DNA of 64,000 nt from an uncultured Planctomycetia bacterium (lineage in GTDB: Bacteria; Omnitrophota; Gorgyraeia; Tantalellales; Tantalellaceae): contig CAZGQR010000010.1 in assembly GCA_964527765.1 (NCBI GenBank), positions 1,680-65,679 of the forward strand, read 5' to 3'. Under the pieces are notes generated by a model, which was given only the letters and a program-made list of their open reading frames with translations, did no database searches and was not told where the DNA came from. The position numbers and the translations under genes are program-made. Each line of letters begins with the position of its first letter. The stretch's first letter is position 1. This document shows, one piece after another, positions 9,501 to 49,549 of the stretch.

Positions 9501-12500
9501 AGAAAATAAGGAAAATGTCCTGGTCGAATTCAAATGCAGCAAGGCATATAAAGGCGACGGTGAGGGCGGTATCATTTACGGGGAACGCCGGATAAGCAAG
9601 ACGCTCGATCGCCTGCTGAGCCCAAAAGAGCGTTCTATCTTTGACGGAATTGTAACGGATCTTCTGTATAATCCGAATATTGAGCGGATCGTGCTGAAAG
9701 AGAATGCCGGTTTCATTGCCGACCTGCAAAAAAATGAAAACGGATGGATCATGGAAATCGACAGGTCCGCCCTTCAGCATCCTCTCCTGGCGCAGTATTC
9801 GCGGGAACACGAGGAATACCTTTCTCATATTGACATAGATGCGGACGAAAGTCTGATCACCGAGATATACGGCCAAAGCTACACGCAGGAACAGAAGAAG
9901 ACGCTGGAGACATTGATGCGGGAGACCATGGCCTGGCTGTTTTCGCTTACCAGGCAGAGCAAGGATCCGGATTACCTGGCCTACCTGAAAGGGTCCTCTC
10001 ATCCCGCTCTTGAGGATTACGCGGAGCTGTTGGAGAAAGCCGGGGCAGTCAATGTCAGGGAGGAAAAAAGCGGAAGAACAGTAAGGCTGGTACTGGATCA
10101 TATTCTCGGCGCTTCCGGGAAAGATAATGTAAAAAAACTCTGCGCACACCTGAGGTCCGACGAGGATAACCTGAAACTTTTCTGCACCGTCATGCGGGAC
10201 GTCTTTAACGCCACGGAGTTCAATATCGCTTTATGCATGAATATGCCGCATTACAACGAGATAAGGGAAAAGGTCTATGAAAGCGGGACCGCGGAATTTA
10301 AAGCCATCCCGCTTTTAAAAGTGAGCGACACTCGAAGTAAGCCCGCCGACGAAATAATAGCCGGGCTTTTACTGCTTTTGCCGGAACTGAAAGATGACAG
10401 CATTTTCCCGGTCGTGCAGCAGGCCATGAACCTGATGAATCCTGATTGCCGGGAGTTTATCAGAGAACTGCTCACGCAGGCAAAAACGGTGAGACGTCTT
10501 GCGGCGGGTAAGGGCCCGGCGTACAGGAAGGCGTGCTGCCGGATGCGCTGGTACACGGAGACATTTCTCAGGCTCACACTGATCGTTTTGAGCCGCACCT
10601 ACAAAGACAGGCAAAAACGCGAAGACTCGCTTAAGAACCTTTTTGAGCTGAAAGTAGCCGTGGAAAAAGTGCTTGAAGACGAGAGACTGCCGGGTGAAGA
10701 GGAAGTAACGCTTGAAAAAGAAGATATGGACGTGCTTCGCAACCTTCTTCTGATCCTTGATTTGCAGGCGGGGTGCCTGTATCTTACCCTGAACGAACCG
10801 GAGAAGGCGATCGCGGTCATGGAACCATGTTTGAAAGAAGAACTGGCGGCACCGGACAGACATTCATTCATGGTGTTTATCGCCAAAGGTTATGCCGCGC
10901 TGGAGGATTTTGAGAAGGCGATCGACTACTGCAAGGGCGCGCTGGATATTTATGAGGAGATATCGAATGAAGAAGCCAAAGACCTGTACATGGAAATAGG
11001 CACGTATTACATGGAACAGGAAAAGTTTAATGAGGCAAAAAAGGCCCTTTTAAAAGCGCTGGAACTTGCCGGCGAGTCAGGTGAAATCATTTTTCACGAA
11101 CCGAAGCATTTTACCGGGAAGGACAATTATACCAGGACCACCCTGGGAACGATCTATAATCTTCTGGCTTCCTGTTTCACGCATGAAAACAAAGGTGCCG
11201 AGAGCATGCATTATATCAATAAGGCGGTTTGTTATGCTCCGGGTGAACCCGTACACAGCCGGACATTCCTGCGATTCCTTCTTTTTTACAGTGAGGTCGA
11301 CAGCGTCATGGAAGGCCTGATCAGCCAGGTCAAGCACCACCTGAAGATCGCCCCGAAAGACAGCGCTTTGTACGATATGGTTTTGAGGGGATGCCAAGGT
11401 AAACCTTCGATCTTACGGTCCGTACTGGAAATATTGCTTAATGATGAGACGGTAAGACGCGCGGATGCCCGTCCTTACGTGGTCCAGGAGAAGTTGTCCG
11501 ATGCATTTCACGGACTTTATGGCAACGGAGAAGATAAAAAATACAGGACAGAAGCGATCGGTGTCATCCGCCGCATACTGAGGACCAACAGGAAAAAGAC
11601 CGTTCAGAAAAACGCCAATGCGCTGCTGGAACGGCTTGGCGTGGGCCCCGGGGTCTATGTTTTTATTGATGCGGCCGGGAAGATCCCGTCTTTAATAAGA
11701 AAAGATTCACCCAGGAAGAAATTCCGCCCCCAGAAAGAGGTGGCTCCGCTCGTGGATATGCTTGACAAGATCGTCCCCGAGGATCTGGGGCTTCAGGAAC
11801 GCCGGGACATAATAACGTGCCTCGAGAAGATCATTAATAACGAAAGTCTCAGGAAACGGTCGGAAAGTAAAGAATATTGGGGAGAGCTGCTGAAAAGAGC
11901 GGAAACAAGGATCACGGATATGCTCGAAGGAATAGATACCCGGGATCTGAGCGCCAAGGCATGCCGGGATATGTCAGATTTCCTCGAGGATATCGTCAAT
12001 AACGAAAAGACGCAGGAACTGGTAGAAAAGTCGGGTAACAAGCATTTGGAAACGTTTTTGTACGCCGCAAGGACGAAATTAAAGGAATTCGGATTTCAAG
12101 GGCACGTTGCCGAGTATGCCCAGCGCTGGCCCGGCATTCCCCGTGAAATCGTTTCTTTGGTTTTAAACGGGGTTCTGATCAGAGAGGCCACGCTTACCTC
12201 GAAATGGGCGAGGAAGCTTATCAGAAAAGAATTGACCGCCGGGGCCTTGAAGATCAAGCTTGGGCGGCTGGAAAACGTTCTGAGGGAGCTTAATGGCCGG
12301 ACATCCAGCGAGATATCCTCCCTTGTCGCGTCGGATCCGGACAGGGTCAGAAACGGACAGGAACTGGACGAAAAAGTGATCGATGCTTTATTTGTTGCGT
12401 TTAAGCGGTTTCTTGAGGAAAAGGGCCGAAGGTGGATCCCCGAGACGGGCGCATGGAAGGATACCGATTCGGTCAAGAGCATAGTTAAACGATATCTGTT

Positions 12501-15500
12501 CGAGGAAAAGAACGTCGGCGCCGCCATGAGCGGAATTTTTAACCTGATAGCGGAATGGCTGATCGAGAAGGACAAACGGTACGGCAGGACCGACCGCGAA
12601 AAACTGGTAAAGGCGATATCGCAGGTAAGAGGACGTATCAGCGCCTCAGATCTGGAAGATACGCTTTTTCATTATTTCGATGGGGAATCAAGGGAAGCTG
12701 TTTCAGGGGAATTACCGGTCCAATCCGCGGCAGAAGAGGCGGAAGAACTTCAGCTGGAAGTGGACATCCGGGAGATCCCGCTGTTCGCCGCCTTATCGCA
12801 AGACCGGCAGGAAGAGATCCTCGGGTCCGAAACCCACAGAGAAAGGCTGGAGAAACTGGTAGAGGTTTTGAGCGCCGGATACGAGGGGTCTTCCGCTGAT
12901 GTCAAGGCGGAAATATGTAAATGGATCCCGGTAATTTATATTTCCCAGTTCCAGCCGGCCCTGAATGAATTTGCCGGCATGAGAGCGATCTCGGACGTGA
13001 TCGAAGAAGTTGCGATCAGGGATGGATATGGATGGATAGAGGGCGTGGAAGCGAATATTATCAAGAAGCGAAAGGGAGAACCCGTCAGGAAGGACGAGGA
13101 TGATATAGGGAAGGAGCTGACCAGGGATCTGGTCATGGTTATTATTGAGAGCTGGATAACGGGAAATTTTACCGAAGAGGAGTTGCGGGAGGACTGGAAC
13201 GAGCTGCTCTATGAAGCAAAGGATGAGGTTGAGGAGGCGTTGAGGAGCGGAGACACGGAGAAAGCGAAAAAAATAGTCACGGATGCAGCTGTCTATTCAG
13301 AAATCCAGGAAAAAGAACCAGGACCACAACCGGCAGGACCAGAACTTCCATCTGCGGAACCGGAATTGCTGCAGGCTGAACCGAAGTCCCTGCGACGGAT
13401 AGAACCCCCGAAGGAACATCCGCGGGAAGTTATAGCTGCGGACAGCCGGAAAGAGCTGATAGAACAGACCGTGAGCGATTATCTTGAAAGATATCCCGGG
13501 TGGGAAAAGGTCTTTCGTCTCAGCATATCGGATGTTGTCGCCAGGATAATAAACGGAAAAGACCTTACTTGGCGCAGGGATATGGACGAAAAACAGATAA
13601 TATCCCGGATGGCACGTAAGTTCATCGGGAACTATTTCAGGGAAAAAGGCGCCGAGTATGTCTTTGAATGCGAGTACTGGGACATGCTTCGCCACGATCA
13701 CGAAGAGGCCATAGCTCTGCTTGAAGAGACTTTAACCGCGGATGAACCGGTTGCCGCTCTGGAAAAAGCAATGCTTATCAGGGTCGCGCCCGTGTATCTT
13801 TCACGGTTTCAGCCGGCGCTGAATGAACTTGTGGGGGGAGAAGATGTCTTGTCCGGGCTTGTCGGAAATGTTGTTGAGAAAGTATATGAGCCGGAGAAGG
13901 GTAGCGCTCCCCGCGAAGATGCGGGAGGGGCCCTTATCCGGGATCTGATCATTCTTGTCGTTATCGAATATGTAAAGGAAAATTTCTCCCGGGAAAAACT
14001 GCAAAGCAACTGGCAAGAAAATATCTTTGCCGCGAGAGAAGATATCGAAAGCAGCCTACTGTACGGTTATGAGCAGATCACCAGAGAAGTGATTTCAAAA
14101 GCAGTCGATGTTCCGACGGACGTCGGCGGGCCGGGGAATATCTATTCTTTTATGCTTCTAGCGTTCTTGCCGTTCACGGGTATTGTGCCGGGGTTGAGCG
14201 TTTTGATGCTGTTAACTACGCTTCTTTTCGTCCTTTTCGCCCCGGGCTTTGAGTTCAGGCAAAAAGAATATGACAGCAGATATGCCGAGAGGCCCCTGCG
14301 CTTCGCTCTTTACAGGAAAAATACAGGAGAACGGGCGGCTGCGGTGAGGATTTTCTTTAAAAATACTGCGGGAGGGCACGGCGTCCTGTTTATAGATTAC
14401 CTGACGGCCCGCAGCCTGGAAGATGCTTTGGCGATAATGTTCGCTTTGCTATGGGGCAGGGAAGCCGTAAAGCGCGTCGCTTTCGGACGCGTGTTCATAA
14501 AAGGGATCAAAAAGAAAGAAGTCATCGACTATTTTAAAAAGAAAAAGCTGTTGGGTGCATGGAAGATACCGCCGATGTCCTTCGACCGGCTGATGCGATC
14601 AGGATTGAGCGGCGCAAGCAATACGGTGCCTTCGTCAAAGGTATACTCGGTCAATAGATTTCACCACTGGTTCAAGATAAGAAAAGCCGGGGAAGCGGCC
14701 CTGAAAAGGCTTAAAAAAGGTCGTATCAGATGGGCTGAAGCCACGAAAGCGGCGAAACGCTATTTAGTAAAACTTCTTGCCAAGGAACTCGGGAAAAGGC
14801 CGGGCGAGTTAAATACGCAGGATTTCGGGAAAAGGTCTAAAGTGTTCGGCAACAGGTCCTTAAGCGGTCTTTTGAGGTCATATGTCGGGCCGGCCAGACC
14901 TTCCGGTAAAGGTGCTCATATCAAAGGGCTCAAGGCGCTGAAAAAAGATCTGGGGATAAAAGACGTTCTCGCACGGATCATTACAGAGAAAACTATCCTG
15001 AAAAGATTTAAAAGGGGATATGTTACGTGGTCAAACACCACGAAGAAAGCCAGGATCTATCTTGTAGAACTTGCCGTCAGAGAACTCGGCAAAAAACCGG
15101 GCGAACTGACCACTAGTGATTTCGGCAAACCGTTCAAAGTGCTCGGAGGTAAATACCTGAGCGGGCTTTTGGAATTCTACCAGAGGGTAAATAAATTTTC
15201 CGGCGAAGAGGGCGCGGGCGCCAAGGCCCTTAAGGCGCTGAAGCAGGACCTGGGTATAAGAGACATTGCCGTCGAGATCATTACGGAGAAAACAGTCCTG
15301 CAAAAGCTCAGATGGGGCCGGATCGACTGGACAAAAACCACAAGGAAGGCAAGGCGCCATCTCGTTGAAGTTCTTGCCAGGAAGTGCAGAAAAAAGCCGG
15401 TAGAGCTGCGCCAGGAGGATTTCAAGAAAACCTCAAGAACATTCGGTGATAAAAATTTGATCGGCCTTCTGGAGTTTTATGTCAGGAAAAAATCCATTAC

Positions 15501-18500
15501 CGGTAAAAATTCTTATGGTAAAGCCCTCAAGATATTAAAGAATGAGCTGGGGATAAGAGAAGAGCCGGGAGAGGTTACGGAGAAAACGATTCTGGAAAGG
15601 TTCAGGCGAGGCAATATTAAGTGGGCGGATGCCACGAAAAAGGCAAGGAGACATCTTGTAAAGATCCTGGCCGGAGAAGTCGGCAAAAAACCTGCAGGCT
15701 TGCTCGTTTCGGATTTCGGCAAAGAAATCGGAACATTCGGCAATAAACGTCTGGTCGGCCTTTTGGAATTTTACATGAGGGCCGATAATCTTTCAGGCGA
15801 AGGCTCTACAGTGGAAGCTCTCCGGGCCCTGAAGGCGGATCTTGGTATAAAAGATTTTACAGGTTTTAAGGCGCCAGGGCCAGCAGTATTCGCGATCGGG
15901 GCATTTATCGCGGCGTTTTTCGGCAAGCCCGCGCTTTTGTCCGCGACGGAAACATACAGCTTAAGTAGGCTTGCGCTGTCCGGCTTTGCAGCCCATCCCA
16001 TGCTTGCTCCGCCATACTGGGGATTTTTATTGCCCCTTCTGTTGGTTTTCCCCGCTCTTATCTCATTTCTTAATTATATAAAGCCCGCGCCCGAAAGCGG
16101 CAGTTTACCTTGCAGAATCTATTCTTTTCTTAAAGCGCGATCTGAGACCACGGACCGGTTCTTTGGCGCAGAGAAGATCCAGAAAAATATAGAAGGCAGG
16201 AGGCCGTCTCTTAAGGATATAAAATATGTTTTGGGAATACTGGTCGATCTCGGCCTTGTCGAACTGAGAACAAAATGGCACGATGAAGTATATAGATGCA
16301 AAAATCCGCGCTTAAGCCCCGATAAGCACAGAGCCATAGAGAACGTTCTGAATAACCTCGGCGAAAAATTCGCTCCGGAAGAAAAAGAACAGGCGCGGAA
16401 GGAACTTGAAAGGAACGATGTATATACAGATACCGGTAAAGGGTACAAATTTTCCGCGCATAATATAACCGATGATTCTATAAAAGCATTGCAGTTCTCC
16501 AGCGAGAATCTCGGGGAGTTTACCCGGATCTTGGACGATTTTGTTGAGCCGCCAGGCGCTAAGCTCAGCACCGGAAGGCGGCGGGAACTGAAGCAGAATC
16601 TGGAGGATGTTTTACCCTGCGTTGAAAAGATCAAATCGCTATTGAGAGGACTGGGAAAAAGGCAAAGGAAGAACCCGGATGTAATCTGGATCGCTCACGA
16701 TATACATCTCATGGCCATAGATTGTTGCGAGTCTCTCGGGGCAATAATCGGGAACCTGTCCCCGGAAGGAAAAGATAAACAGGGAGAGGGACAGTACGTT
16801 AAGGCAAAAGCCGTTCTCGCAAAACTCCGCTTGATCGACGTCAGAGACTTGAGTAGCGATATAATCCTGGCGAAGGCGGGCTCTCCGCTGAAACGGAAGA
16901 GGCCCGTTCCCGCTGCAAAAGAGGTCGTAGAGGAGATCGAAGAGTCAGACGACGATGACAGTTTACCGGGCGAGGACAGCAGTTTATCGCGGAAGACCGC
17001 TGGATCTGAAGCCCCCGCAGCCACATTTCCAGAGGAAACCGTTGGGTCCGGGGAGGAAGCCGCTAATGAACCGGACAAGGTTCCGGAAATCTCTCAGGAT
17101 GAGTCACCGTCTCAAAAGTTATTAAAGGCCTATAGGGAAATATTAAGAGAGGGTCATAAGCCCACATTAAAGGAACTTGCCGGGAAGCTCAGAGTAAGCG
17201 CTGAAGAGGCGAAAGATGTGCTCGCGCAGGTGAATCTTGAGCTGGGGAAAGCCGGCATGCGGCATCTTACGGTTGAACCGGACGTAAGGCGCGATCTGGC
17301 GGGTCTCCGGGCGGAAGATCCAGACAGGATGCTGCAGGAATACATAAGAAGGGGCAAGGTTATTGAATATGTGAGAGATGAAAGTACCGGGAAATGGCTG
17401 GCGTACCGGTTGAAGTATATTGCAGGCCGGAGCTGGAGGGTGAGAGGAACATCAGAAGAAAGGATCCCGGTCCCGGGACGCGATCTGGACAAAAAGCAGA
17501 ACCGGACACTTAATAGCGTGCTCAGAAATCAGTTCAAAAAACTGAAACTTTCCGATGATAAGATGCCTTCCTTCTGCGTGATGCTCGGCAAGACGGTCAT
17601 AGGATGGGGCGGAGGAATAGAGAAATGCAATATTCTTCATACCGGTTACAGGAGGAAGAGGATATGGATCGGGGAGCATCTATTCAACGATTTCTTGCGG
17701 CCTAAATCCAGCCAGCGCGCGGCAGCCCTGGAAGAAGAATTAAAACATATTAAGGACAGGGATCATGCGGATTCTCATGATGCCGGATACAAGAAGCTTC
17801 TGGCGCGCGTGCTGGAACATGCCAGGAAACTGGATGAACTGGCCAGGGCCCTGACCATGGAAAAACTGAGGTTCGTTAAAGATCATGTCGCCGGATGGGC
17901 ATTTCGTTCTTCGATCAAGACTCACGTGGAATGCGGGAATTTTAAAGAAGCGCTGGAACTTGCGAGGATACTGGAAAGAGTGACCGGTGATTACCACGCC
18001 AAAGAGATCATCGAGAAGATCAAGTCTTTTATTGACTGGAAAAAGACGAAGGAGCCGGAATTAAGGGCCGCAAGAAGCGAAAGACAAAAAGGTAAAGGCA
18101 AGTTGTCCAAGGCAGAACTAAGGGCATTAGACTCAAATGTCAGGAAGCTGGAAGGTCAGAAGAGAAGGATCGAAAAGGCAAAAAGAAACCTGGATCCATT
18201 ATTCAACGGATTGAGGCAATGGATGCCCAGATATATAGATAAGTCGTATTTCGGGGAACTTGGCGCGGCGGATACAGGTACGGTAACAGCGCTGTCTCTT
18301 CTGAGCATGCCGGTCTTGACGCTGCTCTCCGTTTCAGATGAGATCCAGGGGCTGGTGATCGTGCTTGTGGTGCTGACACTGATAGCTACCAGTACGGGAA
18401 TATTGGTCTATCGTGCGATTAAGTGGGCTATCCGGGGCATGACGGGGCAACCGCAGCGTCAGGGTACGCTGAAAAGCTTATCGGAAAGCGCCCCGGAAGA

Positions 18501-21500
18501 CATGCCGGAAAAGACATCGGAAAGCACGGCAAGCATGCTCGCCGATGAAATATTTTCCATGTATCCGGAGGGGTTTGCCAAAAGCCATGTCGGAAGGGTA
18601 ATAAGGATCGCGGATCTTCTGGTCCGCGAATTGGGCCTGTTAAAAAAACGCGCCGTTAAGGTGAAGATCCTCGCGGCAACACACGATTTCGGGTCACCGG
18701 TAAAACCCGCAAATAAAGAGATGGCCGACAGAGTACGGAGGATATTATTGCATAAAGGCGTAAATATTCCTAAAAGAAAATCAAGAGATCTGGCTGAATA
18801 TGAGCGCTTGCGCACATTATTCAAGGTGAGAAAAGACGAATTTGATCCCAGAGAGATCGAGATCGCCCTTGATGCATTCCAGGCCCCGCACACTTTGCGC
18901 GCTCTTACGGAAACGGGGTTCAGATTTTCAAGTTTTGTCAGGGTAATAATACTTTTTCACCATCACCTTAGAGAGCTGGAAGCTTTCATGGATAGCCAGG
19001 GCTGGCCAGAGGAGGAAAAAGAAGAAATACGCCTGATCGCTTCGGTCCTCGTCGCGGCGGATGTCGTAGAGAACGGCATGAACCTGTTCAAAAGGATTTA
19101 TTTCAAAGGTGCCGACAGAGCGGAGACCTCGCAGGAAACACTGGATTTTCTGAAGGAAAAGAGCGGCATAATGAAACGCGAGGTCATTGGCGCGTATCAA
19201 GCCCTGATAGACCGCAATGACCGGGAATTGGCATCGATAGCGAAAGATGCCAGCGTTTTTACTCCGCAGGAAGAGGAAGCCCTGGAACAGGCCGGCCTTT
19301 TCCCGCAGGCTCAGCGGCGGGCGCCGCCAGAACATTCTTTCAGAGCGGTCTCCGGTTTCCGGGCGAGCATTTTGATGCTCACCGTGGCCCTTCTTGGCAT
19401 GTTCGGCGGCGTGCTTCAGCATATTATACAGGGCGATATCACGGCTATAACATTTTTTGCGGTAGCCGCTTTCTTATATTTCAGTATTGCAGCAATAAGA
19501 TATTTTCTACTTGGATCAGAGACACGCCAGGCCTTGATCAAGGAAGGTGTTTCTCCCAAAGAGGCTAGCAGGCGGTACATTGCCAGGTCCGGAGGGTACC
19601 GACATCCTGCCTTTAGCGAAAACGAATTTCCGTTCTGGTGTCAGCGTCTTGTAAATATACATGAATCCTACCAGAGCCATTTCTGGGGCATGGTCTTTAT
19701 CATGCCGCTTTTTTATAAGATCACACATCTTGGAAAGAGGGGCGCTCTTTTGAAAAGGGAGAGAGAGCTTCTGATGCAGAGCAGTTTCGCCTATCTGGCA
19801 GAGACCTTGAGAGGTCTGAGGGGACAGGAGAAACCCAGGCCCGGCAAGGACCCCTGGAGGAGTACTAGTATAAGTGGCGCTCCGCGGCTGTGCAAGAGAT
19901 GGAACTCCGAACGTCCCAGGGATGCGGATCAGAAAAAAGCCAGGAGAAGAAAGGACAGAGCCGCCAAAGGAACAAAGGTCATAGCCAGAAGGGGATGGAA
20001 ATTCAAATCAGAAATGAAACACGGCCTTTTTCCGTCACAGGTAGAAGCGGAGATAATGGAAAACGTGGGCCAGAGCGTTCTGGACAAGGCGTATTACCAG
20101 GATGCATTTGGCATGTTGAGCAACCTGCCCGGCGAGAAACTTTTATGGACCAATGAAATATCGGCAGACAAGAACAAGAATCTGCATTTTCACCTGTTTA
20201 AGCTGGGGAACCCCTTACCGATCGAAGAATATGAGCTTGAACCATTGTGCAGGGACCGGGATGATGAGAGCGTGATATTCAAGGTGCGCGGATATCCGGA
20301 AGAGAATAATCCTATTGCCGTATTTGCGGTTAAAGGGCGCCTGGACAGTCCGCACAACAGGAGCCTGGTAAGCGCAAGGTGCTGTAACATAGAGGAGATC
20401 ATAAGGAATAACGGTTATACCGTGGATAAGGTTATTACTGCGGGAAAAGAAAAAGAGGTAACAGTTTTCTTTTTTCCCAGAAGGAGGGGGTACGCGCAGT
20501 TCTTTTCAGAAGGGGAACTGGAATTGGTCGGCCCCCTGGCGATGAGCGGAATATGGACCCTTCCGGGCCGTAAGGAATACAAGGATTTCGGTCTTGATAA
20601 TATTCAGGATGTTTTTTCAAAAGTGGGAGTTGTTCGCGAGAAAGGCGAGAGACTCGAGCAAATGTGCAGCGAAATAGAGAGGAATTTCCACGAGACGGAG
20701 GGCACGGGCCTGCTTCCGCCGAGCGTGTACTTCAGGGTTCTGGATTTTGATATGAAGGAAAAGGAAGAACACCCGGAAAAATTGCAGATCGTGGGCGTAG
20801 ATGAAATAGTGAAAAAGGGCGCAGAGGAAGGAATGCCTGTAAAACTTTTGGACGTGTCTGAAACACAGAAAAAGATAGTGGATATCCTGTCCGAGAAAGG
20901 CGTGAGAAGGATAAATTTTGTTCCCGATCTGTCCGATGAAGGCCTTGAAAGCATGGAAAACTGGGGTTCGATCGTAGGTCTTCTTGAATATGCCAAAAGA
21001 AAAGGCATGACCACGGTTCTTTCTCTTCAGGATTTCGTGGCCAGGAGCAGGAAACTTGAGGAGAATCTGCCTTCCATATATCTGGCTGTTCTGCCGTTCG
21101 TGGATAAGATCTCTTTTGAAGTAAACAGCAAGAACGGCCACTTTGAAAAAATGCTGGAACAGATCAAAAGATATTGTTCGACCAAGACCATTGAGATCTA
21201 TACATATGTTACGACCCAGAACCAGTACGAGATAATCGCTTTGGGCGAATTATTCCAGGAGAAACTGTCCGACGTAAAAGAATTTGAATGGGAAGTAATA
21301 CGCGATCCCGAATCGGAGTCGGCGATAAACGAAAAAGATTACGAGAGTTTGACCGCCCAGATGCGCGTGAGATACCCCAATTCCCGCGATCAAAAAACCA
21401 GCATGAAGATCAATTATGTCCTGTTCGGAAGAGAGGCGTCGAGCCTGTATGTGTCCGGCAACGGAAGCCTGGGTACAATGGAAAAAGGCGAGATACGCGC

Positions 21501-24500
21501 ATTTGCCGATCTTCGGGATCAAAACATGCTTGAGACCAAAAATGTCCGGGACAAATTCAGGATTATAATCGACAGGGTACGCGAACTATCCACTTATATC
21601 CCCAGAGAACTTCCTGCAGCGGCCCGTGAACGCGTACACGGAGGCCTCATAAAGGACATAATGAAGATGTACCCGAGGCTCGGACTATCCGATCTTGTTT
21701 CTCACGTTCACAGGGAAATAGAACTTGCGGAGGAGATAGCCGGAAGGATGGGGCTATCGGAAGAGAAAGTGCTTACCCTGAAACTTGCGATACTCGTGCA
21801 CCATCTGGGCCATCGTTCCAGGGTAGGCGAATACAGGGATGAGTATATTAAGATCAGGTCCGCAATGCGGGAAAAGTACCCCGGCGATAAGAGTAAATTA
21901 TGGCATATCCAGGATGCGGTCAGGGATCTATTGGAAGAAAAAAATGTTAAGAACGTTCCGAGAAATATGAGATTCGGAATTTTTTGCAAAGCGATAGGCG
22001 GACTATTAAAGGAAAAGGGGCTTAACAGTAAAGACCATCTTAATGAAACACAGGCGATGATAGTCCGGTCGATATTCAATATGAGGGAATACGCGCTGAA
22101 TGTATTTGAGGGTCTCGATACAAGTCTTTCGGATAAAGCGAGCGAAGATATGAAAGCGTTATTTGAAACCGTTCCGGAAAGCGTAAAGAGGGACGTGAGA
22201 ATGCTGCTCAAGTATTACGGCAGGTACCGGGAGTTCAGAGAGGAACTCCGGGAGGACGAAGGGCTCATCCGCATGGAATCGTCCATTTCTCCTGAAAAAA
22301 TGAAGCAGCTTATTTCGATAATCAGAATATCAAGCACATTTACCAACAGGCTGGACAGGACGGTCCGGGCGGAACTGCGAAGGGAATTAACTGATTCACT
22401 CTCCGAGGCGATAGAATTCATCATTAAGGATATCGAGCTGGAAAAAGAAGAAGGCGAGGAAACCCTGGAGGCCGTCAGTGAGCTGCTTAACGTGCTTAAG
22501 GACTTCGGGAGGGATCCGCGTATTTTGGGCGAGCTGAATAATCTGCTTGACGAGAAGGGCGGGCAACTGAGGTATAAAAACAGCATGTTCTTGAGATATC
22601 TGAACTCCGACGTTGATCTGGCACCGGATAACTGCAAGGGGGTAATAAGAAATTATCATGATTATGAGGAGGGTATTACCATAGGAACATATTACAGGTG
22701 GTCTACATCATGCCTTCGGGCCGGTGTTTTTGCCGGGGTCATGGCCGTAATCACGGGTTATGGTCCGGTGGTATTTCCCGGCGTTTTAGTTGTTCCTTTG
22801 GCTTTGTGCAGCGTTTTATTGCTTTTCTCGAGTTTATGGTTTTTCCTGATAGCGGAAAGGTGCAAGGAAGCCTACGAGGTGGGGTTCGTCGGGAGATGGC
22901 ATGAAATGCTTATTGATGGCCTGGCAATCAGCGCGTATCGACCCGATGAGATCGTTCAGGCGGCGAAGGAACTCGTTGATAAAAATCCTGAAGATGGAAA
23001 GAACAAGGCGGACATATTTCTTGAACAAATGGCCGATCTGACGGGCGAAAAGGTATTGCTGTTCAAAGAACGCCGGATAGCGGAGCTGATCCATAAAGGC
23101 TTGCTTGAAGACGCGGAAAAAGAAGGCAGGGGAGGAGAGTATCTTAAACTGGCGGGAAAATTGTTGAGATGGAAATACCCCGATGACGAAATCAAAGTGA
23201 GGATCAAAGAGCATGTGCAAACGAAAAAGGACCCGAATGAACTGTGGGATATATATGAATTTCTCAGCCTGCATATCACTGAAAAGATCTTCTCGGATGT
23301 CCTGTTCAGGCTGATGACCGTAAAGGTCCTTGATGAACCAAATACCGAATTAGAGAGCCTGGAAAAGGCAGCCAGAGATGAACTTGAGAAACGGCTCAAA
23401 ACAGAATATGCGGAAGCTTATGCCGAAATAAGAAAGTCATTATGGGGCAGGGGTAATGTCAGTAAAAAGAAGATCCATAAGTTTATATCCGAGTATCGCA
23501 AGCGCAGTGAAGCAAGACCGTACAGGGTTTTGAGAAGAAAAGAAAGATATGCGATTTTTCTTGAAGCAGCGGCTGAAAAGATGGGTAAAATTGAGCTGAG
23601 CGACATTGAAAAAGACATAGCCCGGGCGATATTCAAAGGACGTGAATGCACAAAGAAGGACTTTGAGAGAATGGCCTCCCGTCGGATACATAAACAGGCG
23701 TCGGAGCGCGTCATAGCCAGGCGGCGCCCGCATTTCGGCATTCTTGAGATCACGGATTATAACGCGTTTTCCATGTTGCCAACTGTGGTTAAAAAAATAA
23801 TAGAATTGCAGGATCTATATGAAAATCAGGACAAATGCATGCTCTGTTCATCTTTTCCATGTTACCGCTATTATACCAGTGAAAGGTCAGTGGCAAAATG
23901 CCTGAACGAAAGACTTATTGATGACATGCCGATGGCCAGAAAAGAGACCCTCAGGTTCGATAGGAGCAGGAAAGAACAGTTTGAGCTTAAAGGAGACACA
24001 TGGGAATGGAAGGAAGGGGACGGAATAGCGCTTGTAGGGGATATAAGCAAGGATCTGAAAGATGCTATCGGCGAATTACAGGAAGAGCTGAAAAAGAAAT
24101 TCAGCACCGGGAGATTGCAATTAACACCAAAAGATGAGCTCCATTTTACCGTAGCTATAATCAGGGATAATACCGCAGGCCCCGTTAAAGATACGGAAGA
24201 AAAGGAAAGAAAGGCCCTTATAGAAAAAACAAGGAATATCGTGATAAAGGCCCTGGCCGAAAGAAAAGTCGGTTTAAAGGTGAGTTTCAGCCTGAAACAT
24301 GTTGTTCTTAATAATAATGCCGATATCATTCTCATCGGCGAAGTGAGCAATCCCCTGCTGAACTATGTAAGGACCAGCATGAGGGAGGATCTGGATGCGG
24401 TCAAAAAAGATATAATTCACGTGACGATAGGAAGGATATTCGACAGGGACATAGAAGGAGATGAGGTGGGAATACTGACGAATATAATAAAACGGCACGG

Positions 24501-27500
24501 AGATGACAGAAAGTTCTCTTTTGAGGTCGGCGGCGTAAGGAAGGAATTTTCAGATCTGTGCCTGCATATCTTTGACCAGGCACAGGAAGGACAAAAAGAA
24601 AAGTACCGCGCGATCGAGATCCCGGGATACGCACAGCGCCTGATGAAGGAAAAACTGGAAACCCCTGAAAAGAAAAGGCCGATCAGCAGGATCGTAAGTT
24701 TATTCAAGAATATCCTGGATGATGTCAAATTCCTCCTGCGGCCTTATTTAAAGAAGAAGTTAAGGTCGTTCCGGAAGGCGACGAAACAAGCCGGCTCGGA
24801 AAAGACTTCCCGTGATCTAAAAGGCCCGAAAGCCGAGGAAACTAACCCTTTGATACAAAATCTTATAAGGGAAAATAAAATAGCCGAGGTCTTCGTGAAA
24901 GAAGGGCGCCTCGCAGCTTATCCCGTTAACTTGGTTGATGGTTACATGCCCGGGGGGGCGCATGAGGATCTTTTCGGGGACCCGATAGATATCGATGAAT
25001 TATTTAGCGCGGCACAGCAAAAGAACATAATGGACTGGATACGAGAGCATCGGCCCCCCGACGGCAAAGACTGGCAAGTTCGTTTTCGCATATTATTGGG
25101 CGACACTGCGCTTGGATGGAAGGATAACGCAGAACACTCCATCATATCCCATGCCGGATACCACGATAGATGTATCTATATAGGCCAGCATTTGCTCGCG
25201 TCCTTATTTGATTCTCCCGACGATCCTGTCCGAAGAATGCTTTTGGACGAGGATGAATACAGACATCTGACAGACATACATTTTGACTGTCGTGCCGACG
25301 AGGCGGCCTACAAAAAAAGATTGGAAGCTGTTGGCGAACGCATCAGGGAAGTCGCATTAAAGGTCAATATAAAGAAAGTCATGGAGAAAGATGTTCTCGG
25401 CAGGGACCTGGTCGGGTATCAGAAGCTGGGTCCGGAAAATGTCCTGGAAGCCGAGAAGAACGCGAAAGAATTCATCGATACCATTTATAAGATCATACGA
25501 GCCGAGGGTAAAACATTCAGTGACAGGGAAAGCCTGGCCAGGTACCTCAGGCGAAGGTTCGGCATACGTAAGTTCATCATTGCCGGCGGTAAGGGAACGC
25601 GGTTCTCTCCCGACGGTATAGTGGTCAAGCAGAATTTTAAACCGGATAACTACAATACCAATATAAAACAATCCAGGAAGTCGGCTGCTTTCGGGAAACT
25701 TGAAGATGTGGTCGTCATCGATACCGTGACCGCTTTTCACATCCTCAAGGAAGACCTCAAGATCCCGAAAAAGATGAAAAAGGACATGCAGGCGAGGCTC
25801 GGGTCCGTTTTTAGCGATCTCGTCAAAGCCGGGGTCGTCGAGAAGAACAGGAGCCGGGACCTGTGCGCCGCTATAGGCAGGATTATCGAGGAAAGCGCGG
25901 ACCGCACGCGCCGCCCCGACGGCCTGCGGGATCTGGCCATGGTGATGAGCATGGCGGCGGAGGAGGTCAGTAAAATCATGGGAAAGGATAATCCCGTGGC
26001 TGAGTTTTTGGTGGATAAAATATCGTACGCCATCTTCAAGGAAGTCATGGCCGAGGACGGTTATGTGGATGACGATAAAAAGGACGAGCTTTTCGGAGAT
26101 GACTGCATAGTGATCCTTGATTCCGGGGAAGGTCACGGCAGCGCTTACGTAGAAGCGCTAAGAGAACTGGATGCAATGGGAGAATTGAAAGATGCGCGAT
26201 ATTCCGTCATTGTTCATGCTGACACGCCGGGGTGGGGTCTTGATAAATACCCGAATTCGGTCTTTATCTCATATCTTAAGACGGTGAATCTCGTATCGCC
26301 GGAAGCGCGTGAACTGCCCAAGGTCACCATAGCGGTGAAAAATCCCATGGATGGCCGGGCCGGGGGCCGCGCGCGTATTTTCATTGACAAAACGGAAAGA
26401 TTCGGAAATATCCCGATGGCTATTAAAGAGTGGAATAATATGACCCCCGATGAACAGCAGGAATCAAATAAAATGGCCGAGGCCAGGGACCCGTACTGGT
26501 TTACGAACGCCAATATATTGATCTGCGATACGGAATGGACACAGAAAAACAGCGATGTGCTCTGGAAAGAATACCGCCATGAGCTGGGCGAAAAGACCAG
26601 GCAGAAACAGAGGCCCCTGGAGCGCTGGACAAGCGATTTTCTCAATATCGCGGCCGCGGAATACGCAAAACGCGTACAGAGGGACCCCGACACCCCGCCG
26701 TTCACGCGTCTTGTATCCATAGGACAGATCGCCCCGAATGCCAATAAAACGCTCCAGCGCGCGCTCGATTACAGGGATGATCTGCAGGAAGAGATAATCG
26801 CGAAAATAAAGAGGCTGGGCGTTGAAGTGGATAAGGACGTAACAATAGCGATTTCCGGAAATGACGTGGGGCCGGGTTTCGACCTGGATGAGGTCATCAG
26901 GAATATTTTTGGCGACGACGGGAACGAGGGAGCAAAATTCGGGAATACCAGGCTGAAGGGCAATATCCATCTCGGCAGTGAGGTAAGGATAGAAAAAGGA
27001 GCCCGGCTGGACGGCACAAGGAGATGCGTGTCGCTTACCGGGAAATGTGTCGTCAAAAGCGGGATCGAATTGGACGGGGTCGTGTCCCCGAATGGTGCCA
27101 GGAAAATAGAAGATACCTGGATATATGACGAAAATGTCTTTTACAAGCACACAAAAACGCGCATAACAGGATTTCCGTTCCAGGACGGCAGAACCATAGA
27201 GGGGGCAAGGGTCCGGAACGTGAATTTCAGTGAAATCGGACTTATTGCTGATAAGAGCACCAAAGTATATCTTGTCAGGGAAGACAGAAAAGAGGAGCGC
27301 CGGAAAGCCGAAGAAGAAGTATGGCGCAGGATCAAAGCGGAAGGAGGAAGAGAATATCCCGCAGAGAGAGCGGTGGCGTACCTCAATTATGCGCGCGGGA
27401 TACTGGTTCCCGTGTCGAATGAACCGGAGTCCAAGGCTGTCCGCAAGAAGATCGATATCGCCCGTGCATTTGCGGAAGCCGCGCTTGACATAGATAAAGA

Positions 27501-30500
27501 CAATGGGGAGGCGCGCGATCTTCTGGCCGAGATAGAAAAGCTTGAAACAACGGTGATCCTCAGGAATATTTTCGGGAATGAACGCTACGGCCGAAAGGTG
27601 ATAGACCAGATATTCCTGTACGGGGAGATCACTCTGGACGAAACGGCCAGGGTCGAGAACGGGACCATGCTTGACGGCCGCGCGGGTGAGATCGTTCTTC
27701 TTGGCCAGACACGCGTGCAGAAAGGTGTTCATATCAAGGGAGTCAAAGCGATAGACACGCGCTTTGCCGGCAAGAAGTATCTTGATATTTACCATTATGA
27801 ACAACCGGCTCATGAGAAAATCGCGTTCTTTAACTCGTCATTTGCGAATTCCTGTGTCGAATATTCCGGAAAGGTCGAGAACTCAACGGTCATCAATTCT
27901 TATATCACCAGCGGCGCGGAAGTGATCGAGTCCGACGTGAAAGATGAGATCGTGGTCGGCGATGATGAAATAATAGGACGGCGCCTGGATGTTAAGAATG
28001 ATATTCTGTCGACATCGATCGAGGCGGAAGAAGGAGTATGTGAATATACCCCGGGCGCTTACCGTCTGGAAGAAAAGATGCCCAGGGACCGTGATGAGAT
28101 CAAGGGATATCAGGTTTCTTACGCCAGGAGGTTATACGGGAGATTTATTGATGACGAACTTATTTTAAACCGCATGCTGGAAGACACGAAACAGTTCCTG
28201 TACAGTAAAGTGATCGACAGGTTCACACTGCAGCAGATCAGGCGGTACATGATCGCCAAGATAATGGAAAATATCAAAGTGTATTATCAGGAACGCGAGC
28301 CCGATCTCCTTAAGGACTTCCGCCCGCTGGTAAATAATCTCAGGGCTTACGCGGAAATACCCATGAAAGACATAGCGGAACTGGATGCCGGAGACAAAGC
28401 GCGGGCGAGAGAGCTGTTCCGAAAAATGGCAATACAGGCGATCCGTTCCAATATTATAGATTTTTCCATGGATCCGAAAGCCTTTGACCTGGAGCTACTG
28501 TCGTCTGCGGGCAGCGGTGAAGGCAGGAACTTTGAAAAGTTTCTTGATAAATATACCAAAAAGGAATTGGGGATCGACGGCTTCGATCACTTCGAAGAAA
28601 TGGTCTTCGGCCCCCGCAAAGGAACCTTTTTGTTCTTCACGGATAACATCGGAGAGGCAGAATTTGACGCGTTGATATGGGGATTTCTTGCCAAAATGGG
28701 GCACACCGTGGTTGTTGCGGCAAAAGACGGGTTTTCCTTCGCGGATATCGATAACAAGGGAGTGGAAAGCATTGTAGAAGAGCACCCCCTGCTGAGAGAA
28801 TATAGAAATGCCGGCAGGATCAAAGTCGTCAAAAGCGGTTCCTTATCCGAGGGCGTTTTCCCTCATATGTTCGGCGAAGAACTTAGGGACGTTCTTAAGG
28901 ACAAGGGACTGATGGCGATCATTGCGAAAGGCCAGGCAAACCTATTCACACTTTCCGCCCGGAACAGGATCAAGGTCCCGGTTGTCGCAATGCTGCTGTC
29001 TAAATCGTTGACGTCGAATCTGGTGACCGGGATTTCTCCGGAAAAGGACAAGGACAAAAAAATCTTCTGGCCGATCGCAGCGGTGGTTCCGGGAGGAGCC
29101 AGTATAATGGACTACGAAGGGGAATTGGGTAATTTCGAGGGGACCATTGAACGGTTCGGCAGGCTGCACGAAGAGATCAAACGGACCAAAGAGTTGGATT
29201 ATTCCGAAATACCGGAGATAGCGGAAGGCCTCCTGGAGAGCAACATAAAGAGCGGTTTTCTAAAAAAAGAATACCGGAAAGGCGTAGCTGAGGAACCGGT
29301 GGAAAAAGGAGCGCCGATATACAAACTGTTGGACAGGTCGGACGACCCTTACGTCCAAAAGATAAGAAGTATTTTAAAGCTCAAGAAGGCATTCGCCTGC
29401 ACTTTATGCAGGATCCCGTATATGTCCAGAGAAGCCTCCAGGTCCATTACGAAATACTGGGAATTTTCTGTTAATCCCGAACCCGTGTTTGATTCGCAGA
29501 TCATCGCGATCCACCGCAGGCACATAAATCAGGGAGCGGTCAATGAGAATTACTATTTTGACATGTTTCGGATATTGGAGAACCTCGGAGAATGGCAGGT
29601 AAGCTGGCCCAGCAGGACCGGGACCAGGTTCCCGGAACATCTGCACGCGCACATGTTCAGACGGGAACGCCCCATGCCGGTAGAAGAGTATTCACTTGAA
29701 CCCATTTGCCGGGACAGGAAAGGTAAAGGTGTGGTTTATTCCGTAAAAGATTATCCGGACAGGGATCATGCCATAACTGCTTTTGTTGTCCCGGGAAGCA
29801 TGGAAAAGCCCGGTATATTTGCAAAGAGGTGCGCCGATCTTGAGACTATAATAAAGGGTTTTGGATACGATGTAGATAAGTTTATCACCAGAAGCAAGGG
29901 AGGAGAATTTAAGGTCTTTTTCTATCCCAGGATCGGCGGGCTCAGGAGCGATGTGGGGCCCGTTGACGTGAGCGGCATCTGGGTCCTCTCGAGAGAAGAA
30001 CAGTACAGGGATTTCAAGTTAGCGGATGTCTACGATCTTCTCTCGGAAACCACACTCAATATGTACAGTGCCAGTCACCAATCATTGGCTGATGCCGTCA
30101 AGAGACTTTTTTATGAATCCGAGGGCATAGGCCTCTTTCCGCCCAGCATGGACCTGCTTGTGACCGATAGGTGCAATCTGCATTGCAAGGTGTGCTGGGG
30201 GTCGTTCATGCCCAGGCACGAATCCGTAGGCACGGAAAAGCAGAAAAGGATGATAGATATCATGCATGAGAACGGTATGAGGCGTATGATCTTCACGGGC
30301 GGCGAGCCGCTTCTTGAAGCAAATCTGGCGGACCTGTTAAAGCACGCGAAGGAAAAAGGCATAACCACGCAGCTGTTTACGAACGGCCTGTTGATGGATG
30401 AGGCAAAAACCGATGAGATCATGCCGTACGTGGATATGATATCATTGTCGCTTGACGGGTATGATGACCAGACAAACAGCCTGAACCGAAAGCCCGGCCA

Positions 30501-42121: not shown

Positions 42122-43030
42122 ATGGAAAAAGAATCCTTTTTACAGAAAATTAACAAACAAAAGGTTTCGTATCTCTTCATAGCCTTACCGGCTATATTAT
42201 TCTTCATATTTCAGCTGGCACCGGTTTTCATATCCTTCTTCTGGTCTTTTACCCGATACGACGTTGTGCATTCGCCGCGGTTCGTTGGTCTGGCCAACTA
42301 TAAAAACATACTTTTTAATGATCCCCTGTTCTGGAAAGCGATCACCAATACGGTCATATATGTTATAGGGGTGGTCCCGGTCGGTATTTGTATTTCACTT
42401 CTTCTCGCCGTCGCCATAGATCAGAAGATAAAATTCAAGAATTTCTTTAAATCGATATTCTTCCTGCCGACAGTTACCGCGATAGTTGCCGTGTCGGTTA
42501 TATGGAAATGGCTGTACGCGGGAGGAAAATACGGTCTATTGAATTACATGGTCATTAAGCTGGGTTTCCAGCCTATTGACTGGTTAGCGAGCCCTACATG
42601 GATCTTGCCTGCCATAATGATAATGTCCATCTGGGCCGGACTTGGGTATAACGTGATCCTTTTTTTGGCCGGCCTTCAGACGATCCCGCACATGATGTAC
42701 GAGGCGGCCGAGATAGACGGGGCGGGTTTCTGGAGAAAATTTTTTAACGTGACGCTGCCGCTGCTGAAACCGACCATTGTTTTCGTGACCATGATGAGTT
42801 TCATTTTCAGCTTTCAGGTCTTCGAACAGGTGTATATCATGACGAGCGGACATGGCGACATAGGCGGCGTTTTGAACAGCGGCCTTACGATCGTCGCGTA
42901 CCTTTACGATAAAGGTTTTCAGAAGTTTCAGATGGGATACGCTTCGGCGCTGGCGTATATAATATTTCTGTGCATATTTATGCTTCCAATGATCAACAGG
43001 CGCCTTATGAGGGCACACGTGGAATACTAA
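42122..43030 (+). CDS. Sugar ABC transporter permease (MalF/UgpA-like inner-membrane component)
   Basis: Six or more hydrophobic helices and the EAA-loop motif EAAEIDGAGFWRKFFNVTLPLLKP. Confidence 0.8.
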   Translation: MEKESFLQKINKQKVSYLFIALPAILFFIFQLAPVFISFFWSFTRYDVVHSPRFVGLANYKNILFNDPLFWKAITNTVIYVIGVVPVGICISLLLAVAIDQKIKFKNFFKSIFFLPTVTAIVAVSVIWKWLYAGGKYGLLNYMVIKLGFQPIDWLASPTWILPAIMIMSIWAGLGYNVILFLAGLQTIPHMMYEAAEIDGAGFWRKFFNVTLPLLKPTIVFVTMMSFIFSFQVFEQVYIMTSGHGDIGGVLNSGLTIVAYLYDKGFQKFQMGYASALAYIIFLCIFMLPMINRRLMRAHVEY

Positions 43031-43069
43031 AAACGCGATATGTAATACTGGAAGGAGCTTGCGCGGGTC

Positions 43070-43921: not shown

Positions 43922-43933
43922 AGAAAGGAAACC

Positions 43934-45574: not shown

Positions 45575-45595
45575 TAGCAAAAAGGAGGTCGTAAG

Positions 45596-49530: not shown

Positions 49531-49549
49531 CCGGAGAAGAGATCTCATA

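What the first reader, a model, noticed from the sequence alone, without database searches (positions are those of the whole stretch)
30120..30710. A radical-SAM domain buried near the C-terminus of a 9,895-aa protein, flanked by HIT-like and HD modules
CNLHCKVCW (CxxxCxxC) plus FTGGEPLL are unambiguous radical-SAM hallmarks. Radical-SAM enzymes are normally small, stand-alone, oxygen-sensitive proteins. Here the domain sits immediately downstream of an HxHxH HIT-like nucleotide-binding module (29.4-30.0 kb) and upstream of an HD phosphohydrolase-like domain (31.1-31.8 kb). This suggests coupled nucleotide chemistry, for example modified-nucleotide or nucleotide-sugar radical rearrangement. 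No SPASM-type second cysteine cluster was seen downstream.
Basis: partly seen in the sequence, partly recalled or inferred. Interest (0 to 1): 0.7.

Follow-up and report, generated by a model that had tools for sequence, protein, structure and literature searches.

The report
Viperin-like radical SAM domain in giant protein
A real and probably active radical-SAM enzyme domain, whose closest known relative is the antiviral enzyme viperin, sits between a HIT-like and an HD phosphatase-like domain near the end of a 9,895-residue membrane-anchored multi-enzyme protein of an Omnitrophota bacterium; it belongs to an uncharacterised sister group of viperins that usually travels with a phosphate-removing enzyme.

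Summary
One ORF (nt 3577-33264, 9,895 aa) carries a single CxxxCxxC (nt 30172-30195) and a GGE motif. There is no auxiliary Cys cluster.

The cassette DUF89, HIT-like (DUF4922, the GDP-hexose phosphorylase domain), rSAM, HD and a C-terminal region is conserved in orthologous Omnitrophota giants. An internal second copy is catalytically dead, and two of five orthologs have lost the Cys triad.

Stand-alone relatives sit beside His_Phos_1 phosphatase genes, and more distant ones beside NUDIX genes. I therefore infer a nucleotide-linked substrate whose product is dephosphorylated. Radical SAM domains in Omnitrophota giants are already catalogued; the viperin-like identity and the cassette appear to be new. 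This is a new variant of a known kind, of moderate interest.

The parts
3577..33264 (+). Giant ORF of 9,895 aa. It is a membrane-anchored multi-enzyme protein with PRPP-synthetase-like, PRTase, glucosamine-6-P isomerase-like, TPR, three HD, DUF89, HIT-like and rSAM modules.
   Evidence: orthologs P0005, P0006, P0007, P0012 and loci L006, L007 (Candidatus Omnitrophota MAGs)
28279..29004 (+). ARMT1-like / DUF89 metal-dependent phosphatase domain, directly upstream of the cassette and conserved together with it.
   Evidence: Pfam PF01937 E 7.1e-15; present in L006 and L007
29299..30111 (+). HIT-like domain of the DUF4922 / GDP-hexose phosphorylase type. The motif HLHAH is at nt 29638-29652. Only the middle His (aa 8690) is invariant across 8 homologous copies.
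   Evidence: Pfam DUF4922 24.2 vs 23.6 bits; 3 of 8 homologs match; DUF4922 is the domain of GDPGP1 and GGP relatives
30133..30981 (+). Radical SAM domain with a viperin-type fold: a partial beta-alpha barrel plus a C-terminal extension, with no auxiliary cluster.
30172..30195 (+). CNLHCKVC: the three Cys (8866, 8870, 8873) predicted to ligate the [4Fe-4S] cluster.
   Evidence: C invariant in 60-61 of 61 relatives
30298..30306 (+). GGE motif (aa 8908-8910) at the end of beta-2, the SAM amino-group binding site.
   Evidence: 60 of 61 relatives
30658..30663 (+). W9028-K9029, equivalent to viperin W246-K247 (the RWK motif that contacts the triphosphate).
   Evidence: W in 57 of 61, K in 56 of 61
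30835..30837 (+). Tyr9087, equivalent to viperin Tyr302, the proposed proton/electron donor.
   Evidence: Y in 48 of 61; role as described in PMC9642334
31084..31986 (+). HD-domain phosphohydrolase with H9178, H9215-D9216 and HHD 9352-9354.
   Evidence: Pfam HD 23.2 vs 22 bits; HD dyad kept in P0001 and P0002
32074..33261 (+). Conserved C-terminal region of unknown function that ends the cassette.
   Evidence: 32-50% identity in P0001, P0002, L006, L007; no Pfam hit
19837..22446 (+). Degenerate paralogous copy of the cassette (HIT-like, rSAM-like, HD-like). It has no Cys triad and no GGE, and HD is replaced by HH.
   Evidence: self-BLAST E 1.5e-41 and 6.6e-42; alignments; the same dead copy occurs in P0005 and P0006

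Best explanation
Nt 30133-30981 encode an authentic radical SAM domain that is probably catalytically competent. It belongs to an uncharacterised clade of short radical SAM enzymes (about 280 aa, single cluster), and viperin is its nearest known relative. It forms the centre of a conserved cassette: DUF89 phosphatase, HIT-like GDP-hexose-phosphorylase-type domain, rSAM, HD phosphohydrolase and a C-terminal domain. This cassette ends a family of membrane-anchored multi-enzyme giant proteins in Omnitrophota that deal with sugar phosphates and nucleotides.

Shown by computation: the motifs, the fold, the absence of a second cluster, conservation of the cassette, and the phosphohydrolase partners of relatives.

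Inferred mechanism: Cys8866, Cys8870 and Cys8873 hold a [4Fe-4S] cluster, which reductively cleaves SAM bound at G8908-G8909-E8910. The resulting 5'-deoxyadenosyl radical abstracts a hydrogen from the ribose or hexose of a nucleotide-linked, phosphorylated substrate. This starts a viperin-type dehydration or a related rearrangement, with Tyr9087 (the Tyr302 equivalent) completing the redox cycle. The upstream HIT-like domain would make or break the nucleotide-sugar bond through a His8690-nucleotidyl intermediate. The downstream HD domain would remove phosphate from the product.
Against: There is no biochemical evidence. Viperin positions N77, H79, N122, K220, N222 and R245 are replaced, by Asp, Leu, Ile, Thr/Val, Val/Thr and Gln, so a triphosphate pocket like viperin's is not assured. 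The HIT and HD assignments rest on Pfam scores only just above threshold, and neither domain has a PDB sequence match. The paralogous copy and orthologs P0007 and P0012 have lost the Cys triad, so catalysis is dispensable in some lineages. Some relatives (P0015, P0021, P0022) have no phosphatase neighbour. No reductant domain was found in the protein. Its membrane topology is unresolved.
Confidence: 0.6

Rival explanations
1. It is a bona fide viperin (an NTP 3'-dehydratase that makes ddhCTP, ddhUTP or ddhGTP). It would serve antiviral defence, or act as a chain-terminator weapon of a predatory or parasitic Omnitrophota cell. The HD domain would then detoxify or trim the product.
For: Viperins are the best hits in every search. 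The K247 and Y302 equivalents are conserved. [quoted passage not shown]
Against: It scores 91.8 bits against a cut-off of 180 for NF038283. TIGR04278 (cut-off 450) is not among the best 25 families listed for it. None of 61 relatives gives an E-value better than 7e-49 to the viperin model. Six CTP-contact positions are replaced, and position N77 is Asp in 44 of 61 relatives. The neighbourhood is sugar metabolism, not a defence island. No close relative occurs on viral contigs.
Confidence: 0.15
2. It is an active radical SAM enzyme working on a non-nucleotide substrate, for example a free sugar phosphate, a lipid or cofactor precursor, or a peptide segment of the giant protein itself.
Against: There is no SPASM or twitch Cys cluster and no RRE-like domain. 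The partners in fused and unfused contexts are enzymes of nucleotide and phosphate chemistry: HIT, HD, His_Phos_1, NUDIX, AA_kinase.
Confidence: 0.15
3. The domain is a structural remnant or pseudoenzyme in this protein, like its internal paralog.
For: Copy 1 in this protein, copy 1 in P0005 and P0006, and copy 2 in P0007 and P0012 have all lost the Cys triad and GGE while keeping the fold-level sequence.
Against: In this window every catalytic motif is intact: the Cys triad, GGE, TNG, D119, R130, WK and Tyr. Identity to stand-alone enzymes is 40-48%, and to intact orthologs 65-70%.
Confidence: 0.07

Closest known systems
Viperin / RSAD2 / prokaryotic viperins (SAM-dependent nucleotide dehydratases)
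   Different: Falls below both NCBIfam viperin cut-offs. N77, H79, N122, K220, N222 and R245 are replaced. It is embedded in a 9,895-aa protein between a HIT-like and an HD domain. Its context is sugar metabolism.
Ophion defence system (OpnA rSAM + OpnB PHP phosphoesterase + OpnC PRTase; bioRxiv 10.1101/2025.09.30.679545)
   Same: [quoted passage not shown] This giant protein also holds PRTase-type domains (aa 858-1280) and pairs the rSAM with a phosphohydrolase.
   Different: Here the phosphoesterase is HD, not PHP. The parts are fused into one giant protein. No sequence comparison with OpnA was possible. There is no evidence of a defence role.
Multi-enzyme 'metabolic cluster' giant proteins of Omnitrophota (bioRxiv 10.64898/2026.06.07.730766; West-Roberts et al., bioRxiv 10.1101/2023.11.21.568195)
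   Same: A very long protein punctuated by TM segments and tiled with sugar-metabolism, HD, HIT and radical SAM Pfam domains. Internal repeats have diverged at the nucleotide level.
   Different: Those surveys list PF04055 only as a Pfam count (90 proteins). They do not mention viperin, and the passages read here describe no HIT-rSAM-HD cassette. At 9,895 aa, this protein lies just under their 10-kaa threshold.
MoaA (GTP 3',8-cyclase)
   Same: A nucleotide-triphosphate-modifying radical SAM enzyme and the usual outgroup of viperins. It has a similar beta-1/Cys-loop sequence.
GDP-hexose phosphorylases (GDPGP1, VTC2/GGP; Pfam DUF4922, HIT superfamily), for the upstream domain
   Same: Pfam DUF4922 match over profile positions 59-143, which includes the H-x-H-x-(H/N/T) motif. 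The middle His is invariant.
   Different: The score is only just above threshold, 3 of 8 homologs match, and no structural confirmation was made.

Membership tests
Radical SAM superfamily (PF04055) | CxxxCxxC cluster-binding loop after beta-1 | tested here: met
   C8866, C8870 and C8873 align with viperin C84/C88/C91. In the model they lie in the loop after strand 16-22.
Radical SAM superfamily (PF04055) | GGE SAM-binding motif at the end of beta-2, and a profile score above the gathering threshold | tested here: met
   GGE is at model residues 67-69, directly after strand 62-67. PF04055 scores 79.1 vs 29.5 bits.
Radical SAM superfamily (PF04055) | Reductive cleavage of SAM by a [4Fe-4S]+ cluster | not testable with these tools
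   Needs anaerobic biochemistry.
Viperin family (NF038283 / TIGR04278) | Score above the curated family cut-off | tested here: not met
   NF038283 scores 91.8 bits vs 180. TIGR04278 (cut-off 450) is not among the best 25 families listed for the window domain. The best of 61 relatives scores 7e-49, and the ten scanned singly give 48-117 bits.
Viperin family (NF038283 / TIGR04278) | Partial (beta-alpha)6 barrel closed by a C-terminal extension | tested here: met
Viperin family (NF038283 / TIGR04278) | Conserved NTP-contact residues (mouse N77, H79, K120, N122, S124, K220, N222, R245, K247; the list comes partly from memory and partly) | tested here: not met
   Kept: K120 as R, S124 as T, and K247. 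Replaced: N77 to D, H79 to L, N122 to I, K220 to T/V, N222 to V/T, R245 to Q. These are sequence alignments only, not a 3D superposition.
Viperin family (NF038283 / TIGR04278) | Conserved Tyr (mouse Y302) proposed as proton/electron donor | tested here: met
   Y9087 aligns with Y302 and is Tyr in 48 of 61 relatives. The role is as described in PMC9642334.
Viperin family (NF038283 / TIGR04278) | Nucleobase-binding beta-8 loop residues (mouse C314/K319, or Asn in prokaryotes) | tested here: inconclusive
   The position aligned to C314 is Thr and is variable in the family. K319 lies beyond the aligned range.
Viperin family (NF038283 / TIGR04278) | Produces 3'-deoxy-3',4'-didehydro-NTP | not testable with these tools
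   Needs an enzyme assay with LC-MS.
SPASM / twitch radical SAM enzymes | C-terminal Cys-rich auxiliary cluster domain | tested here: not met
   No Cys between aa 8873 and 9153. No PF13186 hit.
MoaA | Second C-terminal [4Fe-4S] cluster and a score above the family cut-off | tested here: not met
   TIGR02666 scores 73.2 vs 284 bits, over the N-terminal core only. No C-terminal Cys.
HIT superfamily, GDP-hexose phosphorylase type (DUF4922) | H-x-H-x-(H/Q) motif with an invariant nucleophilic middle His, and a profile match | tested here: met
   HLHAH at aa 8688-8692. The middle His is invariant in 8 homologous copies. PF16269 scores 24.2 vs 23.6 bits, and 3 of 8 copies match. The match is marginal.
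HIT superfamily, GDP-hexose phosphorylase type (DUF4922) | HIT alpha+beta fold | not tested
PDB sequence and profile searches found nothing.
HD-domain phosphohydrolases (PF01966) | H...HD...D metal-binding signature and a profile match | tested here: met
   H9178, H9215-D9216 and HHD 9352-9354. PF01966 scores 23.2 vs 22 bits. The HD dyad is kept in P0001 and P0002.
Ophion (OpnA-OpnB-OpnC) | rSAM together with a PHP phosphoesterase and a PRTase | tested here: not met
   No PHP domain was found in the giant protein. PRTase-type domains are present at aa 858-1280.

The most novel reading that the evidence does not exclude
The clade is a previously unrecognised family of nucleotide- or nucleotide-sugar-modifying radical enzymes, sister to viperins. 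It works obligatorily with a phosphohydrolase, which is HD here, His_Phos_1 in Nanoarchaeota-type operons, and NUDIX in defence-island-like operons. In Omnitrophota it has been welded into a membrane-tethered assembly line. That assembly line would turn imported mannose-type sugars and nucleotides into an unusual dehydrated or deoxy nucleoside or nucleotide sugar, used in the organism's host-dependent or predatory lifestyle.
Probability: 0.2. Interest if true: 0.8.

Novelty: new variant of a known kind. Interest (0 to 1): 0.55.

Why it matters
Viperin chemistry (radical dehydration of nucleotides) is known mainly as an antiviral device. A sister clade would extend that chemistry to new substrates and roles. 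Here the clade is hard-wired to phosphohydrolases, and in one case to a GDP-hexose-phosphorylase-like domain inside a sugar-nucleotide mega-enzyme.

The finding also bears on how Omnitrophota giant proteins are read. An intact domain that needs SAM and a reductant and is oxygen-sensitive argues that the last 3,465 residues of this protein work in the cytoplasm as a metabolic assembly line, not as an extracellular coat.

The dead paralog and the orthologs that lost the cluster give a natural series for studying how enzyme domains decay into scaffolds inside giant proteins.

The stand-alone 280-aa homologs (for example P0009 and P0011) are tractable targets for finding the substrate.

Tried and rejected
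- Single-sequence AlphaFold of the domain gave an unusable model (pLDDT 46.5). It was replaced by an alignment-based model.
- The first word-indexed homolog search returned only four proteins, two of them contig-cut C-terminal fragments. The exhaustive HMMER search was needed.
- PDB sequence and profile searches for the HIT-like domain, the HD region and the putative nucleotidyltransferase/LbH region (aa 7260-8230) found nothing significant. The motif IIAGGKGTRF at aa 7334 therefore remains only a motif-level hint.
- hhalign between the nucleotidyltransferase-like neighbour of the stand-alone rSAMs and aa 7260-7700 of the giant aligned only the G-loop (probability 2%). I do not claim these are homologous.
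- BLAST of stand-alone operon neighbours against the giant found only the rSAM.
- The Kiritimatiellae locus L009 gave no informative neighbours.
- The AFDB Foldseek library was unavailable.
- The viral contig scan gave only generic radical SAM hits at 31% identity or less over the N-terminal core.
- PADLOC pVip models hit at 105 bits. They are the only families the PADLOC scan returned for the domain and carry no cut-off, so I gave this no weight.
- The Fenwick 2020 viperin-CTP structure paper could not be read. Part of the contact-residue list therefore rests on memory.
Full report
**1. The observation**

The window holds an uninterrupted ORF at nt 3577-33264 (+) encoding 9,895 aa. It contains exactly one CxxxCxxC (CNLHCKVC, aa 8866-8873, nt 30172-30195). 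With 82 Cys, 0.0056 such motifs are expected by chance. FTGGEPLL follows 33 residues downstream of the last Cys. The stretch matches Pfam Radical_SAM (E 5.7e-22, 79.1 bits against a cut-off of 29.5) and Fer4_12.

HLHAH at aa 8688-8692 lies in a region matching DUF4922 (24.2 vs 23.6 bits). An H...HD...HHD pattern at aa 9178-9354 matches Pfam HD (23.2 vs 22 bits). There is no Cys between aa 8873 and 9153, so no SPASM, twitch or MoaA-type auxiliary cluster exists.

The only correction concerns the domain boundary. Alignment with stand-alone homologs and the structure model puts the domain at nt 30133-30981.

**2. What kind of radical SAM enzyme it is**

- In NCBIfam the best model, and the only one matching nearly full length, is the prokaryotic viperin model NF038283: 91.8 bits over profile positions 5-242 of 281. 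MoaA, NirJ and SPASM models score about 75 bits and cover only the N-terminal core.
- In the PDB the best sequence hits are mouse viperin and the fungal and cnidarian viperin-like enzymes.
- An exhaustive HMMER search of 1.84 billion representatives gave 23 hits below 1e-30. These split into domains embedded in other giant proteins and stand-alone proteins of about 280 aa at 42-47% identity.
- A profile of 61 family members puts nine viperin structures on top (106-120 bits), ahead of SkfB (100), BlsE (92) and MoaA (82).
- An AlphaFold model built from that alignment is confident (pLDDT 92.5, pTM 0.91).

**3. Why it is not a viperin proper**

The domain scores 92 bits against a cut-off of 180. 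The ten relatives scanned individually score 48-117 bits, and across all 61 the best E-value to the viperin model is 7e-49.

I mapped the alignments to mouse viperin numbering:

| Viperin position | Here | Conservation in the 61 relatives |
|---|---|---|
| K120 | Arg | variable (K 13, R 6 of 61) |
| S124 | Thr | T 36, S 18 of 61 |
| R194 | Arg | 53 of 61 |
| K247 (WK motif) | Lys | 56 of 61 |
| Y302 | Tyr | 48 of 61 |
| N77 | Asp | Asp in 44 of 61 |
| H79 | Leu | variable |
| N122 | Ile | replaced |
| K220 | Thr/Val | replaced |
| N222 | Val/Thr | replaced |
| R245 | Gln | replaced |

The clade also has conserved residues of its own: D18, R130, T158, N164, G253 and G267-N268. I conclude that it is a sister clade sharing viperin's scaffold and part of its catalytic apparatus, with a differently built substrate pocket.

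**4. The cassette and its relatives**

Self-comparison shows that aa 5474-6078 are paralogous to aa 8628-9218 (E about 1e-41). This first copy has no Cys triad and no GGE, and its HD dyad reads HH.

Proteins P0005, P0006, P0007 and P0012 (5.0-6.1 kaa) are orthologs. So are two GTDB genomes labelled Candidatus Omnitrophota (L006 and L007, 67-70% identity in the rSAM). They share the N-terminus, a middle block and the whole C-terminal cassette of DUF89, HIT-like, rSAM, HD and C-terminal domain. The source organism is therefore an Omnitrophota bacterium.

The fate of the Cys triad differs among the five protein-level orthologs:
- The window protein, P0005 and P0006 keep it.
- P0007 (YDRNCPVSW, FTVGSKY) and P0012 have lost it.
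- P0006, L007 and P0012 carry an insertion of about 110 aa after the Cys loop.

In the HIT-like domain only the middle His of the motif is invariant across eight copies, as expected for a HIT nucleophile (established knowledge of the HIT superfamily). DUF4922 is the domain of GDPGP1 and of GDP-L-galactose phosphorylase relatives.

**5. Context**

In the window, the upstream ORF carries a PEP-utilising domain. The 2,800-aa downstream ORF carries phosphogluco/phosphomannomutase and phosphomannose isomerase domains. A mannan-type utilisation locus follows, with ABC permeases, two GH113 enzymes, CBM27-type binding proteins, a ROK kinase and a solute-binding protein. The giant protein itself has PRPP-synthetase-like, PRTase and glucosamine-6-P isomerase-like domains.

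Gene neighbourhoods elsewhere:
- Among the closest stand-alone homologs, the rSAM gene lies beside a His_Phos_1 phosphatase gene in L001, L002/L003 and the P0013 contig. It lies directly after a conserved 295-346-aa gene with a GGxGxR...PKP motif and a weak NTP_transf_3 hit in L001, L002 and the Nanoarchaeota locus L008.
- P0014 and P0015 lack such neighbours.
- In the more distant bulk of the family (26-30% identity), a NUDIX gene abuts the rSAM in 4 of 4 contigs and an AA_kinase gene in 2 of 4. STAND and AAA_15-type ATPases lie nearby.
- Two intermediate members have unrelated neighbours.

Three different phosphohydrolase families thus recur next to this viperin-like scaffold. This is the main reason I infer a phosphorylated, nucleotide-type substrate whose product is dephosphorylated.

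**6. Mechanism**

Shown by computation: the domain identities, the fold, the motif integrity, the conservation of the cassette, and the partner genes.

Inferred:
- The [4Fe-4S] cluster is held by C8866, C8870 and C8873.
- SAM is cleaved to the 5'-deoxyadenosyl radical.
- A hydrogen is abstracted from the ribose or hexose of a nucleotide-linked substrate.
- Dehydration or rearrangement follows, as in viperin, with Tyr9087 as the redox and proton partner.
- The HIT-like domain handles the nucleotidyl bond through His8690.
- The HD domain removes phosphate.

I put about 0.6 on this general picture and about 0.35 on the reaction being a viperin-type dehydration. The rivals are a true ddhNTP-forming viperin (0.15), a non-nucleotide substrate (0.15) and an inert scaffold (0.07).

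**7. Comparison with what is known**

Radical SAM domains in Omnitrophota giant proteins are already on record as Pfam counts: PF04055 in 90 of 779 proteins, within a sugar-metabolism co-occurrence module. HIT and HD domains are listed there too. Neither giant-protein survey mentions viperin. No paper listed in a search combining viperin with Omnitrophota or DPANN terms contained the word viperin.

The Ophion defence system pairs an rSAM 'related to but distinct from pVips' with a PHP phosphoesterase and a PRTase. That is the same logic with different parts, but I could not compare sequences. [quoted passage not shown]

I therefore class the finding as a new variant of a known kind. The novel elements are the clade assignment, the conserved HIT-rSAM-HD cassette, its dead paralog, and the recurrent phosphohydrolase partnership.

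**8. Limits**

- No coordinates could be inspected, so residue equivalences come from sequence and profile alignments only.
- The HIT and HD assignments sit near threshold and lack structural support.
- The neighbourhood sample is small.
- Membrane topology is unresolved. There is an N-terminal anchor and seven double hydrophobic segments, none after aa 6430.
- Nothing here shows activity.

Noticed in passing
window 19837-22446 (aa 5421-6290): A second, degenerate copy of the HIT-like / rSAM-like / HD-like cassette. It has no Cys triad and no GGE, and HD is replaced by HH. The same dead copy is kept in orthologs P0005 and P0006, so it is old and maintained.
   Followed up: partly
orthologs P0007 (aa 4110-4417), P0012 (aa 3760-4215), P0006 (aa 4823-4950), L007 6001-7188: Two of five orthologous giants have lost the cluster-binding Cys and GGE in the otherwise conserved rSAM domain. 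Three relatives (P0006, P0012, L007) carry an insertion of about 110 aa directly after the Cys loop.
   Followed up: partly
window 7585-7704, 9379-9501, 14140-14262 (aa 1337-1376, 1935-1975, 3522-3562): Three near-identical Pro-rich hydrophobic 40-mers (YSFLPLAxLPFxPxVPGLxIF...) plus four other double hydrophobic segments divide the protein into modules. None occurs after aa 6430. With the N-terminal anchor (aa 6-29), the predicted topology would put the SAM- and ATP-dependent modules on the wrong side. This is unresolved.
   Followed up: partly
window 14695-15864 (aa 3707-4096): Four tandem basic repeats of about 100 aa (45-57% identical to each other) with no family match.
   Followed up: no
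window 18469-19293 (aa 4965-5239): A third HD-type region (THD motif at aa 5035-5036), similar to the two cassette HD domains but without a Pfam hit.
   Followed up: no
window 25576-25605 (aa 7334-7343): IIAGGKGTRF, a nucleotidyltransferase-type glycine loop, lies in a block conserved in all orthologs (aa 7260-7900). No Pfam or PDB match was found for the block.
   Followed up: partly
window 33473-41875 and 42122-50782: The next ORF (2,800 aa) carries phosphogluco/phosphomannomutase and phosphomannose isomerase domains. It is followed by a mannan-type utilisation locus with ABC permeases, two GH113 enzymes, two CBM27-like proteins, a ROK kinase and a solute-binding protein.
   Followed up: partly
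L141 5001-7198, L142 55-1974, L143 1302-2613, L144 585-1941: The more distant viperin-like family members sit in a compact rSAM + NUDIX (+ AA_kinase) operon in 4 of 4 contigs, next to STAND/NB-ARC or AAA_15-type ATPase genes. This looks like an undescribed defence-type module.
   Followed up: partly
L001 6469-8858, L002 6964-9528, L008 5084-6789: The closest stand-alone homologs form an operon with a His_Phos_1 phosphatase and a conserved GGxGxR...PKP nucleotidyltransferase-like gene. One locus is from a Nanoarchaeota MAG, and L001 and L004 carry archaeal marker genes. The clade is therefore shared between Omnitrophota and DPANN-type archaea.
   Followed up: partly
L010 791-12461 (Planctomycetia MAG), L060 2297-7536 (Omnitrophota UBA9636): Arrays of 4 to 10 radical SAM core domains in tandem within about 12 kb.
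   Followed up: no
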